Origin: Escherichia phage EcS1
Length of the DNA: 64,000 nucleotides
Direction: 5' to 3' (one strand)
Sequence record: NC_055721.1
The stretch's first letter is position 1. Every line of letters starts with the position of its first letter. The translations under genes were made by a program, and so were the position numbers. Positions 8,200 through 13,060 of this stretch are shown piece after piece. Under the pieces are notes generated by a model. The model made no database searches, was not told the DNA's origin, and saw only the letters and a program-made list of their open reading frames with translations.

Positions 8200-8284
8200 T
8201 GGTGCATCGAGAGGGATTCGAACCCTCAATCCTCGCGGCGTGGCATTTTAAGTGCCATGTGTATACCAGTTCCACCATCGATGC
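8200..8284 (-). tRNA. tRNA-Leu (anticodon TAA)
   Basis: 85-nt class II tRNA with long variable arm; anticodon loop CTTAAAA; CCA encoded. Confidence 0.7.
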
Positions 8285-8288
8285 GAAT

Positions 8289-8363
8289 TGGTCGAGACAG
8301 TAGGGATCGAACCTACGACCTAGGACTTAGAAGGTCCTTGCTCTTCCGTCTGAGCTATGCCCC
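8289..8363 (-). tRNA. tRNA-Arg (anticodon TCT)
   Basis: Anticodon arm GGAC-CTTCTAA-GTCC, T-loop TTCGATC, CCA encoded. Confidence 0.7.
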
Positions 8364-8525
8364 GTCTTTGTATAAACGTTCTAAGTAAACATGCTCCATC
8401 GGTTTAACGATTTCGCCTTGTTTCAATAATTGTGTTTGAATAGGATTCAAATTATAAAATTTGATCACATCTCTGAGATCTTGTTCGCTATAATTAAAAG
8501 TTCCTACTTCTACTCCGATTTGCAT
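8355..8525 (-). CDS. hypothetical small protein (56 aa)
   Basis: Small ORF between tRNA genes, not in the supplied track (below its length cut-off); stop overlaps the tRNA-Arg 5' end. Confidence 0.25.
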   Translation of the reverse strand: MQIGVEVGTFNYSEQDLRDVIKFYNLNPIQTQLLKQGEIVKPMEHVYLERLYKDGA

Positions 8526-8537
8526 AAGTATCCTTTT

Positions 8538-8624
8538 TGGAGCTAGGAGTGAGATTCGAACTCACGAAAGCATAACGCTACTGGATTTGCAATCCAGCGC
8601 CTTTGACCACTCGGCAATCCTAGC
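8538..8624 (-). tRNA. class II-type tRNA with anticodon GCA (Cys) and U73 discriminator
   Basis: 87 nt; acceptor GCTAGGA/TCCTAGC, Ser/Tyr-like D-arm GCCGAGTGGTCAAAGGC, anticodon stem CTGGA/TCCAG with loop TTGCAAA, 15-nt variable arm, T-loop TTCGAAT. Confidence 0.5.
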
Positions 8625-8626
8625 AA

Positions 8627-8754
8627 ATGTTCAGGTGGGAGTCGAACCCACACGATTGAAGCCTCTCATCGGGTTACCTCTTACTCAGCTGGGTGCTTAA
8701 ACCAGCGTTTCAAACAGAGTCCGCCAACATGTCTACCGATTCCATCACTGAACA
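8627..8754 (-). ncRNA. tRNA-like stable RNA candidate (about 128 nt)
   Basis: Perfect 7-bp acceptor-like pairing (TGTTCAG/CTGAACA) next to a canonical T-arm (GTGGG-TTCGACT-CCCAC) and a Leu-like D region (GGAATCGGTAGAC), but too long for a tRNA and without a clean anticodon arm. Confidence 0.35.
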
Positions 8755-8758
8755 ATTT

Positions 8759-8983
8759 TTACATATCTACTTGACAAAACCAGTTCATTTCAAAATATTC
8801 ATCAAAATGTAATGCAGGTTCTACTTGACAATTTTCTTCTAATAAGACCAAATTTCTTCTAACAATAGGGTCTAATGACGTGATGGTCAAAGCACTATCA
8901 TGATAGTAAATCAGAACACGAAGCGAATCTGTATCAACTAAATACCGAACATTCATATCAGGATGTTTGTAGAGGTTAATCAT
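8759..8983 (-). CDS. hypothetical protein
   Basis: 74-aa ORF upstream of the tRNA block. Confidence 0.4.
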   Translation of the reverse strand: MINLYKHPDMNVRYLVDTDSLRVLIYYHDSALTITSLDPIVRRNLVLLEENCQVEPALHFDEYFEMNWFCQVDM

Positions 8984-10877: not shown

Positions 10878-10951
10878 TGGCAGGCCCTGTAGGAATCGAA
10901 CCCACGTCGCTGAGGTTGGAGCTCAGAATGATACCACTATACCAAGGACCC
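10878..10951 (-). tRNA. tRNA-Trp (anticodon CCA)
   Basis: Anticodon arm CTGAG-CTCCAAC-CTCAG, T-loop TTCGATT, CCA encoded. Confidence 0.65.
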
Positions 10952-11102
10952 GTTGATTGTACGGAACGCCTGGATTCGAACCAGGTTACAAAGCAGTTGA
11001 CGCTCCTTTGTATTTTGTAAGGCCATCATCTCGACCATATCCGAACGTTTCGTCAAAAACGCTACTCGGCTTATGGCAAAGACAAATCCTCGAACCGATA
11101 AT

Positions 11103-11177
11103 TGGTGGGAGCTGTTGGTAACGATCCAACCTCTCGAGCTCTTCAGGCAAGCGCTAATCCGTCTCAGCTAAACTCCC
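11103..11177 (-). tRNA. tRNA-Phe-like (anticodon GAA), weakened anticodon stem
   Basis: 75 nt, acceptor GGGAGTT/AGCTCCC plus ACCA; anticodon loop CTGAAGA; two mismatches in the anticodon stem and an atypical T-loop. Confidence 0.4.
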
Positions 11178-11422: not shown

Positions 11423-11668
11423 TTAATTTATATCAAATATGGTGCCATCTTTCCACATCATTGCGAAAAGAGGTGAAACTTTTGTTAAACGGTGTGCAAC
11501 TTTAACTTGACGGCTAAAACCTTCAATTTGAGCACCATAACCATTTATATCTAATACAAGACCAATATGAACTTTGCCAATATCAGACATACCATTTGAA
11601 GGTAATCCAATCATGACATAATCGTTAACTTCGATTTGTTTACCATATTTGTCAAATAATATCTTCAT
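11423..11668 (-). CDS. hypothetical protein
   Basis: 81-aa ORF embedded in the tRNA cluster. Confidence 0.4.
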   Translation of the reverse strand: MKILFDKYGKQIEVNDYVMIGLPSNGMSDIGKVHIGLVLDINGYGAQIEGFSRQVKVAHRLTKVSPLFAMMWKDGTIFDIN

Positions 11669-12475: not shown

Positions 12476-12552
12476 TGGTGGGACATCATGGACTCGAACC
12501 ATGGACACCCGGATTAAAAGTCCGGTGCTCTAACCAACTGAGCTAATATCCC
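12476..12552 (-). tRNA. tRNA-Lys (anticodon TTT)
   Basis: Anticodon arm CCGGA-CTTTTAA-TCCGG, T-loop TTCGAGT, CCA encoded. Confidence 0.7.
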
Positions 12553-13060
12553 ATAGATATTTATCTATAAATCTCTTAGCTTGAGTATGACTTATATTTA
12601 AACTTTTACTAAACTTGGTTAATGCACCTCGTTTAGTAAAATCTATTAAATTATAAGCTTCAATTCTAGAAGCAATTTCTTCTTCAGACAAAACCAAAGC
12701 ATGGTTTTCTGAAATCTTTTTACGAGATTCTGTTGTATGTGACATACCAGTAAAACCAAGAGTAGGTTTTAGTCTACCATTAGCTTTAGCGTCTTGTGCA
12801 TTTTGTTTATTTGTCGCACAATAAATGTTTTCTAATGAATAAGGACCTATATCGCCTTTACGACACATGCAATAATCCAAACTTGCTTTACCACGTAAAT
12901 GATATTTACCTGTTGATTTCCACCAAGTAAACCACTCATCAAAAGTTAGATTAAATTCAATACCACGAGCTTTGGCATGAACTTTTTGCATACGGTACTT
13001 TTCATAATCTTCCATACAACTCTCACAAATTGGCAGTGCCGACGGGATTCGAACCCGCAT
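12530..13060 (-). CDS. putative HNH-type homing endonuclease with NUMOD-like and HTH-like C-terminal motifs
   Basis: CxxC plus Cys/His-rich N-terminal region (CESC...DYCMCRKGDIGPYSLENIYCATNKQN), NUMOD3-like GFTGMSHTTESRKKISENH, C-terminal HTH-like segment; both ORF ends overlap tRNA genes, so the true start is probably the internal Met at about 13015. Confidence 0.45.
   Translation of the reverse strand: MRVRIPSALPICESCMEDYEKYRMQKVHAKARGIEFNLTFDEWFTWWKSTGKYHLRGKASLDYCMCRKGDIGPYSLENIYCATNKQNAQDAKANGRLKPTLGFTGMSHTTESRKKISENHALVLSEEEIASRIEAYNLIDFTKRGALTKFSKSLNISHTQAKRFIDKYLWDISSVG

What the first reader, a model, noticed from the sequence alone, without database searches (positions are those of the whole stretch)
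8627..8754. 128-nt tRNA-like element: possible homolog of the T4 stable RNAs C/D
Immediately upstream of the class II tRNA lies a segment with a perfect 7-bp acceptor-like pairing (TGTTCAG/CTGAACA), a canonical T-arm and a Leu-like D region, but with about 40 extra nucleotides and no clean anticodon arm. T4 encodes two stable RNAs of unknown function that are co-processed with the tRNA cluster; this element may be their counterpart or a tRNA-derived regulatory RNA.
Basis: partly seen in the sequence, partly recalled or inferred. Interest (0 to 1): 0.5.

Follow-up and report, generated by a model that had tools for sequence, protein, structure and literature searches.

The report
Phage tRNA-Leu-derived RNA, long kinked arm
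This is a real, conserved but undescribed small RNA of T4-like phages: a leucine-tRNA body whose anticodon arm is replaced by a long kinked three-helix arm. It is not the counterpart of the T4 RNAs C and D, whose true relative lies elsewhere in the same window.

Summary
The 128-nt segment (minus strand, 8754 to 8627) is as described. It has a perfect 7-bp acceptor stem, a Leu-type D arm, a canonical T arm and a 17-nt class II variable region.

About 59 nt sit where a tRNA has a 17-nt anticodon arm. They are not disordered: they form three stacked helices (A, B, C) with a GA-type internal loop (K-turn or loop-E-like).

Copies occur in roughly 200 GenBank T4-like phages of Serratia, Erwinia, Klebsiella, Enterobacter and relatives. 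Of 28 base pairs, 23 show compensatory changes.

A covariance model of the element scores phage tRNA-Leu next best (39-42 bits). It scores T4 rnaC at 12 bits and does not find rnaD.

The true rnaC ortholog lies at 10960-11098 (85% identity to T4). Both RNAs co-occur in this window and in Enterobacter phage myPSH1140. The element is therefore a separate tRNA-Leu-derived RNA family, not an rnaC/rnaD homolog.

It cannot decode: the arm is too long and neither an anticodon nor the discriminator is conserved. The intron and pseudogene readings fail comparative tests.

Most likely RNase P and 3' trimming release it as a stable RNA in which a tRNA body displays the arm. The arm is a divergence hot spot between near-identical phages, which hints at a variable partner. 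The function is unknown.

The parts
8627..8754 (-). Whole tRNA-like RNA (128 nt; RNA position i = window coordinate 8755 - i)
   Evidence: Sequence. The covariance model R1 spans 8625-8755. Homologs are found in many T4-like phages.
8748..8754 (-). Acceptor stem, 5' strand UGUUCAG
   Evidence: Pairs with 8628-8634. All 7 pairs show compensatory changes across homologs, and 95.9% of cells are paired.
8729..8745 (-). D arm: 3-bp stem AUG/CAU with the 11-nt loop GAAUCGGUAGA (Leu type, G18 G19 present)
   Evidence: The stem covaries (AUG/CAU, GUG/CAC, GCG/CGC). GGUAGAC is invariant. R1 aligns this region to the tRNA-Leu D arm.
8724..8727 (-). Stem A, 5' strand UUGG, at the position of the tRNA anticodon stem
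   Evidence: Pairs with CCGA at 8669-8672. Variants are CCGG/CCGG, GUGA/UCGC and CGCGG/CCGUG. 95-100% of cells are paired. R1 aligns it to the anticodon stem of T4 tRNA-Leu.
8720..8723 (-). Internal loop 1, 5' side CGGA (last A invariant)
   Evidence: Faces GUAAC at 8673-8677, where G..AA is invariant. The third 5' nucleotide and second 3' nucleotide stay pairable (G.U, A-U, U.G; reading).
8716..8719 (-). Stem B, 5' strand CUCU
   Evidence: Pairs with AGAG at 8678-8681. All 4 pairs are compensatory (CUCU/AGAG, GCUU/AGGC, CACC/GGUG, CCUC/GAGG), and 100% of cells are paired.
8707..8715 (-). GA-type internal loop, 5' (bulged) strand GUUUGAAAC; UUGA is invariant in the family
   Evidence: Faces UGAGUA at 8682-8687. 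In the type 3 homologs the same position reads as a canonical K-turn: C-stem, UUU, G.A, A.G, then G-C. Here the loop has the AGUA/GAA loop-E consensus, or a K-turn with A.U at the second pair.
8688..8706 (-). Hairpin C: GCUGG, loop UUUAAGCAC, CCAGC
   Evidence: All 5 stem pairs are compensatory. The loop YUUAAGCAM is kept in the Winklervirus/Roskildevirus lineage even where the stem differs. Its first six bases resemble the tRNA-Leu(UAA) anticodon loop CUUAAA of the same window.
8682..8687 (-). GA-type internal loop, 3' strand UGAGUA
   Evidence: AGUA is invariant in types 1 and 2. The A next to stem B is present in all types.
8678..8681 (-). Stem B, 3' strand AGAG
8673..8677 (-). Internal loop 1, 3' side GUAAC
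8669..8672 (-). Stem A, 3' strand CCGA
8652..8668 (-). 17-nt variable region (class II length) UGAGAGGCUUCAAUCGU
   Evidence: R1 aligns it to the long variable arm of T4 tRNA-Leu. A short 2-3 bp stem is possible in every subtype (my reading; not formally tested).
8635..8651 (-). T arm GUGGG-UUCGACU-CCCAC
   Evidence: 100% of cells are paired, and 3 of 5 pairs are compensatory. The T loop GGUUCRA..C is invariant.
8628..8634 (-). Acceptor stem, 3' strand CUGAACA
8625..8627 (-). Discriminator U plus a UU spacer; no encoded CCA. The next tRNA starts at 8624.
   Evidence: The discriminator varies among homologs (U, C or A).
8538..8624 (-). Downstream partner in the presumed dimeric precursor: a class II tRNA with anticodon GCA, U73 and an encoded CCA
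   Evidence: ARAGORN and Rfam. Karamvirus has the same arrangement.

Best explanation
The element is a member of an undescribed family of tRNA-like RNAs in T4-like (Tevenvirinae) phages. It derives from a class II tRNA-Leu.

What it is:
- It keeps everything that makes the tRNA 'top half' and elbow: a 7-bp acceptor stem, U8, the Leu-type D arm with G18 G19, the T arm and a long variable region.
- The 17-nt anticodon stem-loop is replaced by a roughly 59-nt arm. The order is stem A, an asymmetric internal loop, stem B, a GA-type kink motif (K-turn or loop-E-like), then hairpin C.

How it most likely works:
- It is transcribed with the upstream genes and the downstream tRNAs.
- RNase P cuts at its 5' end, 4 nt after the stop codon of the upstream ORF.
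- RNase P also cuts at the 5' end of the next tRNA, 3 nt after the element's acceptor stem. Exonucleases then trim the 3' end, with or without CCA addition.
- The product is a stable RNA of about 128 nt.
- It cannot act in decoding. The tRNA body serves as a processing and stability scaffold, and the kinked arm is the working part, probably a binding surface for a protein or RNA partner that differs between hosts.

Shown: the sequence features, the secondary structure, the descent from tRNA-Leu, the distinctness from rnaC/rnaD, and the distribution.

Inferred: expression, processing, stability, and trans-acting function through the arm.
For: Structure:
- RNAalifold on a MAFFT alignment recovers the acceptor, D, A, B, C and T helices.
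- 96.7% of cells are paired, against 34-48% in slid controls. 18 of 28 pairs and 23 of 28 pairs on 21 distinct sequences show compensatory changes.
- The arm folded on its own gives stems A, B and C as its minimum-energy structure.

Descent from tRNA-Leu:
- The model's next-best hits are tRNA-Leu in T4 (41.9 bits), in the window (39.3 bits) and in other phages (35-43 bits). Stem A aligns to the anticodon stem and the 17-nt region to the variable arm.
- ARAGORN in intron mode calls the element tRNA-Leu.

Placement in a tRNA operon:
- There are 2-3 nt between the element and the next tRNA, which is Cys-like here and in Karamvirus, Leu in X20 and Arg in most others.
- It starts 4 nt after an ORF stop codon, and no terminator lies nearby.

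Not a decoder:
- The apical loop differs between subtypes: UUUAAGCAC, UUGGUAC, UUGAAUCA.
- The discriminator varies and no CCA is encoded.

The arm as the working part:
- Invariant nucleotides cluster in the two internal loops (UUGA, the A next to stem B, and G..AA), while the helices covary.
- Within Karamvirus the flanks are 94-95% identical but the element is 59% identical, and its arm plus variable region 51%.
- Within Jiaodavirus the flanks are 82-92% identical against 69% for the element and 56% for the arm plus variable region.
Against: - There is no expression, end-mapping or stability data for any member. None was found in the literature searches.
- The single-sequence minimum-energy fold differs from the consensus: -34.6 against -26.1 kcal/mol, z = -0.11.
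- The K-turn assignment rests on sequence pattern only. In the window's subtype the second tandem pair would be A.U rather than A.G, and the same nucleotides fit a loop-E motif.
- No partner has been identified. The neighbouring ORFs are uninformative, and the complement of the apical loop is not enriched in the window.
- The position at the mRNA/tRNA boundary also fits a purely cis-acting processing role.
- The local divergence could reflect recombination between lineages rather than selection.
Confidence: 0.6

Rival explanations
1. A cis-acting processing ('punctuation') element. The tRNA-like fold exists only to recruit RNase P and so separate the upstream mRNA from the tRNA subcluster, or to help mature the abutting tRNA. 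The released RNA has no function of its own.
For: In most genomes it sits exactly at the boundary between ORFs and a tRNA subcluster. It lies 4-12 nt after an ORF stop codon and 2-3 nt before a tRNA. T4 tRNAs are known to mature from multimeric precursors (established knowledge).
Against: Any ordinary tRNA would do this job. The rival does not explain a conserved, covarying 59-nt arm with invariant internal-loop nucleotides. In Roskildevirus (Cronus, IT22, FBB1) the element stands alone, with ORFs rather than a tRNA downstream.
Confidence: 0.2
2. An intron-containing tRNA-Leu gene. The insertion is removed to give a functional decoding tRNA.
For: ARAGORN in intron mode reports tRNA-Leu(AAG) with a 39-nt intron at position 32/33. 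A few GenBank records annotate homologs as 124-128-nt tRNAs. T4-like phages encode RNA repair enzymes (established knowledge).
Against: - The 'spliced' anticodon stem proposed by ARAGORN is paired in only 45.7% of cells, with no compensatory change. The nested stems A, B and C are paired in 95-100% of cells.
- No consistent 7-nt anticodon loop or anticodon can be assembled across subtypes.
- Pipelines assign contradictory identities: Thr, Ser, Phe pseudogene, OTHER.
- At about 40-50 nt the insert is far too small for a group I intron, and it is not a bulge-helix-bulge motif. Both are the known classes of tRNA intron.
- The discriminator is not the A73 that LeuRS needs, and it is not conserved.
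Confidence: 0.04
3. A homolog or counterpart of the T4 stable RNAs C or D.
For: It is tRNA-like, of similar size (128 nt against 139 and 119), and lies in the tRNA cluster. T4 rnaC also has an acceptor-like stem and a canonical T arm.
Against: - The true rnaC ortholog lies at 10960-11098.
- The two RNAs co-occur in one genome, in the window and in myPSH1140.
- The model scores rnaC at 12.2 bits, below ordinary tRNAs, and does not find rnaD.
- rnaC/rnaD and the element show mostly non-overlapping phage distributions in BLAST.
- The gene order differs. T4 has Arg, rnaD, rnaC; here the element precedes Arg.
Confidence: 0.03
4. A decaying tRNA-Leu pseudogene that suffered an insertion and has no function.
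For: Standard tRNA finders and Rfam do not call it. One GenBank record labels a homolog a pseudogene. The single-sequence folding energy is not better than that of shuffled sequence.
Against: The inserted part keeps its helices through many compensatory changes across at least five genera. All pairs of stems B and C are compensatory. The internal-loop nucleotides and all elbow nucleotides are invariant. The length stays within 124-132 nt.
Confidence: 0.03

Closest known systems
Class II tRNA-Leu (phage T4 tRNA-Leu and the window's own tRNA-Leu(UAA) at 8200-8284)
   Same: A 7-bp acceptor stem, U8, a 3-bp D stem with the Leu-type loop (GAAAUYGGUAGAC), a long variable region and a canonical T arm. 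It is the next-best hit of the element's covariance model (39-42 bits).
   Different: The anticodon stem-loop is replaced by a roughly 59-nt three-helix arm. There is no conserved anticodon, the discriminator is variable and mostly not A73, and no CCA is encoded. Rfam tRNA and default ARAGORN do not call it.
T4 species 1 RNA (rnaC) and species 2 RNA (rnaD), stable RNAs of unknown function in the T4 tRNA cluster
   Same: A small RNA encoded among phage tRNA genes. rnaC also has an acceptor-like stem and a T arm. Their function is still unknown (PMC3014915, PMC9697503, PMC12685909).
   Different: There is no specific sequence or structure similarity. rnaC lacks the Leu-type D arm. The window carries its own rnaC ortholog at 10960-11098. 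The phage distributions and gene order differ.
tRNA-like domains joined to another module through the anticodon-arm position: tmRNA and bacterial YrlA (Y RNA-like)
   Same: The design principle is the same: an acceptor/T-arm/elbow mimic whose anticodon arm is replaced by a long helix carrying a different functional module (established knowledge of these families).
   Different: There is no tag reading frame and there are no pseudoknots; only a 17-nt Rfam match to the tmRNA T arm was found. In YrlA the RNA ends lie in the long helix and the acceptor is closed by a loop, which is the reverse topology. Rfam YrlA does not match the element.
Engineered 'tRNA scaffold' RNAs (anticodon arm replaced by an RNA of interest to obtain stable, correctly processed RNA in E. 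coli)
   Same: The same architecture and the same presumed logic: the tRNA body gives processing and nuclease resistance, and the inserted arm carries the function. The method is mentioned in PMC3401473, listed; the rest is my own knowledge.
   Different: Those are artificial constructs. This one is natural, conserved and covarying.
Kink-turn (K-turn) and loop E / sarcin-ricin GA motifs
   Same: Type 3 homologs read as a canonical K-turn: a 4-bp C-stem, a UUU bulge, tandem G.A/A.G, then G-C. The window's type has the AGUA/GAA loop-E consensus at the same place. G.A next to stem B is kept in all types.
   Different: This rests on sequence pattern only. In the window the second tandem pair would be A.U, and in FBB1 and L154 it would be A.A. 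No three-dimensional or protein-binding evidence exists.

Membership tests
T4 rnaC (species 1 RNA) | Detectable sequence homology to T4 rnaC | tested here: not met
   blastn of T4 rnaC against the window hits 10960-11098 (85% over 140 nt, E 3e-39) and not the element. The three-way alignment shows only T-arm identity.
T4 rnaC (species 1 RNA) | Shared secondary-structure architecture, scored with the element's covariance model | tested here: not met
   rnaC scores 12.2 bits over a partial stretch, below seven ordinary T4 tRNAs. The rnaC fold has one long 5' hairpin in place of the D and anticodon arms.
T4 rnaC (species 1 RNA) | Orthology: one copy per genome at the equivalent place | tested here: not met
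   The element and an rnaC ortholog co-occur in the window and in myPSH1140.
T4 rnaD (species 2 RNA) | Sequence or structure similarity to T4 rnaD | tested here: not met
   rnaD has no blastn hit in the window above noise. The model finds no hit on rnaD.
Canonical decoding tRNA (Rfam RF00005) | Acceptor stem, D arm, T arm and elbow nucleotides | tested here: met
Canonical decoding tRNA (Rfam RF00005) | A 5-bp anticodon stem with a 7-nt loop at the standard distance, and a conserved anticodon | tested here: not met
   It is replaced by a roughly 59-nt arm. The apical loops are 7-10 nt long and differ between subtypes.
Canonical decoding tRNA (Rfam RF00005) | Reaches the Rfam gathering score or is called by default ARAGORN | tested here: not met
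   No RF00005 hit, even at E up to 10, and no default ARAGORN call.
Canonical decoding tRNA (Rfam RF00005) | Aminoacylation and a 3' CCA end | not testable with these tools
   CCA is not encoded and the discriminator varies between U, C and A. Biochemistry is needed.
Intron-containing tRNA | After removal of the insert, a conserved anticodon stem and loop | tested here: not met
   The ARAGORN exon-exon stem is paired in 45.7% of cells with no compensatory pair. No common anticodon exists.
Intron-containing tRNA | The insert belongs to a known intron class (group I, or bulge-helix-bulge) | tested here: not met
   Rfam finds no intron family on the element. The insert is about 40-50 nt and has two-sided internal loops rather than bulge-helix-bulge.
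K-turn motif | A Watson-Crick C-stem, a 3-nt bulge, tandem G.A and A.G pairs, then an NC-stem | tested here: inconclusive
   The pattern is met at sequence level in the type 3 homologs, with C-G to U-A covariation in the NC-stem. In the window, G.A is kept but the second pair would be A.U, and the loop-E consensus AGUA/GAA fits equally well.
K-turn motif | A kinked three-dimensional geometry, or binding by an L7Ae-type protein | not testable with these tools
   No RNA 3D or binding assay is available.
tmRNA | A tag reading frame and pseudoknots joined to the tRNA-like domain | tested here: not met
   ARAGORN in tmRNA mode finds none. Rfam matches only 17 nt of the T arm.
YrlA / Y RNA-like | A match to Rfam RF02553 | tested here: not met
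   The weak YrlA hits in the region lie on pairs of ordinary tRNAs, not on the element.

The most novel reading that the evidence does not exclude
A natural 'tRNA scaffold'. T4-like phages use a tRNA-Leu body to produce and stabilise a kinked RNA arm that acts in trans as a decoy or inhibitor of a host factor. The target could be, for example, a tRNA-targeting or RNA-sensing defence nuclease, or a tRNA-binding enzyme. The arm would be exchanged or diversified between closely related phages as part of an arms race.
Probability: 0.15. Interest if true: 0.8.

Novelty: new variant of a known kind. Interest (0 to 1): 0.55.

Why it matters
T4-like phages are the classic system for phage tRNA biology. 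Even so, the only non-tRNA products known from their tRNA clusters, RNAs C and D, have had no function for 50 years.

This element is a third, distinct RNA family. It occurs in roughly 200 sequenced phages of Klebsiella, Enterobacter, Serratia, Erwinia and relatives, many of them phage-therapy candidates. In GenBank it is either unannotated, covered by spurious ORFs, or labelled with contradictory tRNA identities.

Its structure is unusually well supported by covariation, and it is small and easy to manipulate. Its arm varies sharply between near-identical phages. Together these make it a tractable candidate for a phage non-coding RNA that acts on a host factor.

At the least, a covariance model of the family would correct genome annotation and tRNA counts in these phages.

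Tried and rejected
- Rfam at gathering threshold and at E up to 10: nothing on the element except a 17-nt tmRNA T-arm fragment.
- Single-sequence folding: uninformative (z = -0.11), and the minimum-energy fold disrupts the T arm.
- Direct alignment with T4 rnaC and rnaD: only T-arm identity.
- ARAGORN intron model (tRNA-Leu(AAG) with a 39-nt intron): rejected by covariation counts.
- A short ORF reading (SD-like AAGAGGU followed by AUG in the window and X20): rejected because most homologs have ACG in place of AUG.
- Alternative pairing of stem B's 5' strand with the second AGAGG in the variable region: possible in some subtypes but absent in ValerieMcCarty03, so not conserved (my reading).
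- Loop-to-variable-region pseudoknot: one suggestive GGU/ACC to AGU/ACU change in type 2, but nothing consistent in types 1 and 3 (my reading).
- Antisense targets of the apical loop within the window: no enrichment.
- Neighbouring ORFs as functional clues: a gp30.3 family protein and PHROGs of unknown function only.
- Promoter and terminator scan: counts at chance level, nothing specific to the element.
- Cellular homologs: a pattern scan of 100,044 species genomes gave 89 stretches, of which 80 were screened with the model. None was the element.
- Metagenome scan: only 6 further copies among 100 stretches screened, all of known subtypes or FBB1-like.
- Literature searches for a description of this RNA or of a function for rnaC/rnaD: none found.
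- Resemblance of hairpin C to CRISPR repeats (an RNA anti-CRISPR idea): considered from memory and dropped, because the stem sequence is not conserved between phages.
Full report
**Observation**

The tRNA cluster of this window lies on the minus strand. ARAGORN finds 17 tRNAs and Rfam finds 18.

- Acceptor stem UGUUCAG/CUGAACA, 7 perfect pairs.
- U8 G9, then a 3-bp D stem AUG/CAU with the loop GAAUCGGUAGA.
- T arm GUGGG-UUCGACU-CCCAC.
- One unpaired U, then UU, then a class II tRNA at 8624-8538.

Default ARAGORN and Rfam do not call it. This holds even at E up to 10, where only a 17-nt tmRNA T-arm fragment matches. Its single-sequence folding energy is ordinary (z = -0.11).

**Where the window comes from, and conservation**

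The region matches T4-like phages (Straboviridae, Tevenvirinae) close to Winklervirus, such as Serratia phages X20 and CHI14 and Erwinia phage Gravdalen. No record covers the 1.6-kb query fully.

The 128-nt element alone has homologs at 71-98% identity in 19 records. Divergent copies used as queries find 64 and 144 records. The genera include:

- Winklervirus
- Roskildevirus
- Jiaodavirus
- Karamvirus
- Marfavirus
- Edwardsiella phages PEi20 and PEi26

The hosts are Serratia, Erwinia, Kosakonia, Klebsiella, Raoultella, Enterobacter, Cronobacter and Edwardsiella.

Pattern scans added 10 copies from IMG/VR and 6 from metagenomes. All came from contigs of the same phage type or from short contigs. 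None turned up among 80 screened pattern matches in bacterial and archaeal genomes.

In most GenBank records the element is unannotated or overlapped by a doubtful ORF. A few pipelines label it a 124-128-nt tRNA with contradictory identities: tRNA-Thr, tRNA-OTHER, tRNA-Phe pseudogene and tRNA-Ser.

**Structure**

RNAalifold on a MAFFT alignment of 14 copies returns six helices:

- the acceptor stem
- the D stem
- stem A (UUGG/CCGA), where a tRNA has its anticodon stem
- stem B (CUCU/AGAG)
- hairpin C (GCUGG, 9-nt loop, CCAGC)
- the T stem

On that alignment 96.7% of cells are standard pairs, against 34-48% when partners are slid by 1-3 columns. Eighteen of 28 pairs have compensatory changes. 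On 21 distinct sequences aligned to the model the figures are 96.9% and 23 of 28. All pairs of stems B and C are compensatory. That alignment is fitted to the structure, so the independent MAFFT result carries the weight.

The arm folded on its own gives stems A, B and C as its minimum-energy structure.

About 59 nt therefore replace the 17-nt anticodon stem-loop. The 17 nt that follow correspond to a class II variable region.

**Subtypes and motifs**

Three main subtypes, plus an FBB1-like form, share this design but differ strongly in helix sequence.

The invariant nucleotides of the arm sit in its two internal loops:

- UUGA on the 5' strand between stems B and C.
- An A next to stem B on the opposite strand.
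- An A facing G..AA in the loop between stems A and B.

In type 3 the B/C loop reads as a canonical K-turn. This type includes ValerieMcCarty03, KPV15-like Jiaodavirus and myPSH1140-like Karamvirus. The pattern is a 4-bp C-stem, a UUU bulge, tandem G.A and A.G pairs, then G-C. The next pair covaries between C-G and U-A.

In the window's type 1 and in type 2 the same place has the loop E / sarcin-ricin consensus (AGUA facing GAA). It can also be read as a K-turn whose second pair is A.U. In FBB1 and L154 that pair would be A.A.

I therefore call it a GA-type kink motif, and the exact geometry is untested.

The apical loop is conserved within lineages and differs between them:

- YUUAAGCAM in Winklervirus and Roskildevirus. 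Its first six bases resemble the Leu(UAA) anticodon loop.
- UUGGUAC or UUAGUAC in type 2.
- UUGNAUCA in type 3.

**What it derives from, and what it is not**

A covariance model of the element (R1) gives tRNA-Leu as the best non-self hit everywhere:

- 41.9 bits in T4, 39.3 bits in the window, and 35-43 bits in other phages.
- Stem A aligns to the anticodon stem and the 17-nt region to the long variable arm.
- T4 rnaC scores 12.2 bits over part of its length, below seven ordinary T4 tRNAs. rnaD is not found.

Decisively, blastn of T4 rnaC against the window finds a full-length ortholog at 10960-11098 on the minus strand. It is 85% identical to T4 (E 3e-39) and 93% identical to the myPSH1140 copy. 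It lies between tRNA-Phe and tRNA-Trp. No rnaD homolog is detectable.

Enterobacter phage myPSH1140 likewise carries both rnaC and the element. The element is therefore a separate family derived from class II tRNA-Leu. It is not the counterpart of T4 RNAs C or D, whose function is still unknown according to papers up to 2025.

The intron reading was tested and fails:

- Its exon-exon anticodon stem is paired in only 45.7% of cells, with no compensatory change.
- No common anticodon loop can be assembled across subtypes.

The pseudogene reading is excluded by the covariation in the inserted part.

**Context**

- The element begins 4 nt after the stop codon of a 74-aa ORF (8759-8983, PHROG of unknown function). 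That ORF follows a gp30.3-family gene.
- Three nucleotides after the element's acceptor stem, the next tRNA starts.
- In most relatives the next gene is tRNA-Arg. In X20 it is tRNA-Leu. In Karamvirus and here it is the class II tRNA with anticodon GCA.
- In Roskildevirus the element stands without an adjacent tRNA.
- Promoter-like and terminator-like sites are at chance level.

**Most likely mechanism**

Shown:

- A tRNA-Leu-derived fold with an intact acceptor/T-arm stack and elbow.
- An arm far too long for decoding.
- No conserved anticodon, a variable discriminator (U, C or A) and no encoded CCA.

Inferred:

- The RNA is transcribed with its neighbours.
- RNase P cuts at its own 5' end and at the 5' end of the abutting tRNA, and the 3' end is trimmed. 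This is as known for T4 tRNA precursors that lack encoded CCA.
- It accumulates as a stable RNA of about 128 nt. The tRNA body acts as a processing and stability scaffold, and the kinked arm is the functional surface.

One further observation bears on function. Between phages of one genus the element is a local divergence hot spot:

| Genus | Flank identity | Element identity | Arm plus variable region identity |
|---|---|---|---|
| Karamvirus | 94-95% | 59% | 51% |
| Jiaodavirus | 82-92% | 69% | 56% |

The secondary structure and loop motifs are kept throughout. This pattern fits a module that is exchanged or diversified because it meets a variable partner. It does not prove that, and recombination alone could give the same picture.

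I put about 0.9 on the structure and descent, about 0.7 on excision as a discrete RNA, and about 0.3 on a trans-acting binding or decoy role. The overall figure for the statement as worded is 0.6.

The main rival is a purely cis-acting processing signal at the mRNA/tRNA boundary (0.2). It does not explain the conserved arm.

**Comparison with known systems**

The element works most like tRNA-like domains that carry another module at the anticodon-arm position. These are tmRNA and YrlA, and the engineered tRNA scaffolds. It fails the membership tests of tmRNA and YrlA, and it is not a canonical tRNA, an intron-containing tRNA, rnaC or rnaD.

I found no paper describing it in the searchable library. 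I rate it a new variant of a known kind: phage tRNA-cluster-encoded tRNA-like RNA.

**Limits**

- There are no expression data.
- Motif assignments are by sequence pattern only.
- The pattern used for the large scans requires GGTAGAC, TTTGA and GGTTCRAG, so more divergent members would be missed.
- Nine of the 89 genome stretches and 20 of the 120 listed metagenome stretches were not screened.

Noticed in passing
window 10960-11098, minus strand: A full-length ortholog of T4 rnaC (species 1 RNA). It is 85% identical to T4 over 140 nt (E 3e-39) and 93% identical to the Enterobacter phage myPSH1140 copy. It lies between tRNA-Phe (11103-11177) and tRNA-Trp (10878-10951). No rnaD homolog was detectable in the window.
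   Followed up: partly
window 8538-8624, minus strand (also L015 1005-1089 and L016 1503-1587): The tRNA next to the element is a class II tRNA with a Ser/Leu-like body, a 3-bp D stem and a 15-nt variable arm. It nevertheless has a Cys anticodon (GCA), discriminator U73 and an encoded CCA. It is conserved in Karamvirus. A long-variable-arm tRNA-Cys is unusual, and which synthetase charges it is unclear.
   Followed up: no
window 11103-11177, minus strand: A tRNA found by Rfam (36 bits) but missed by default ARAGORN. At a lower threshold ARAGORN calls it tRNA-Phe(GAA), with a weak anticodon stem and an atypical T loop (AUCGUUA).
   Followed up: partly
window 8355-8525, minus strand: A 56-aa ORF fills the 173-nt gap between the Cys-like tRNA and tRNA-Arg and overlaps the first bases of tRNA-Arg. 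It has no Pfam or PHROG match. In Karamvirus the two tRNAs are only 4 nt apart, so this looks like a local insertion.
   Followed up: partly
window 8767-8777 and 8822-8832, plus strand: A direct repeat, CTACTTGACAA, occurs twice inside the 74-aa ORF and antisense to it. The first copy forms the best sigma-70-like match of the region (TTGACA, 17 nt, AATATT; 10 of 12) and points away from the element. Its significance is unknown, and the promoter-like count overall is at chance.
   Followed up: no
GenBank homologs: L007 601-732, L012 559-663, L016 1616-1720, L038 390-517, L039 397-524, L040 366-489: Public records annotate the element inconsistently. Some carry short hypothetical ORFs over it on either strand. 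Others call it tRNA-Thr, tRNA-OTHER, tRNA-Phe (pseudogene) or tRNA-Ser, so tRNA counts reported for these phages are affected.
   Followed up: partly
L015/L016 (Karamvirus) and L011/L014 (Jiaodavirus): Two different subtypes of the element occupy the same locus in phages of one genus whose flanks are 82-95% identical. It behaves like an exchangeable cassette.
   Followed up: partly
window 11423-11668 and 12530-13060, minus strand: The two largest gaps in the tRNA cluster hold ORFs of 81 and 176 aa with no Pfam match. The 176-aa ORF overlaps the ends of tRNA-Lys and tRNA-Asp, where T4 carries the homing endonuclease segB in its own cluster. This was not examined further.
   Followed up: partly
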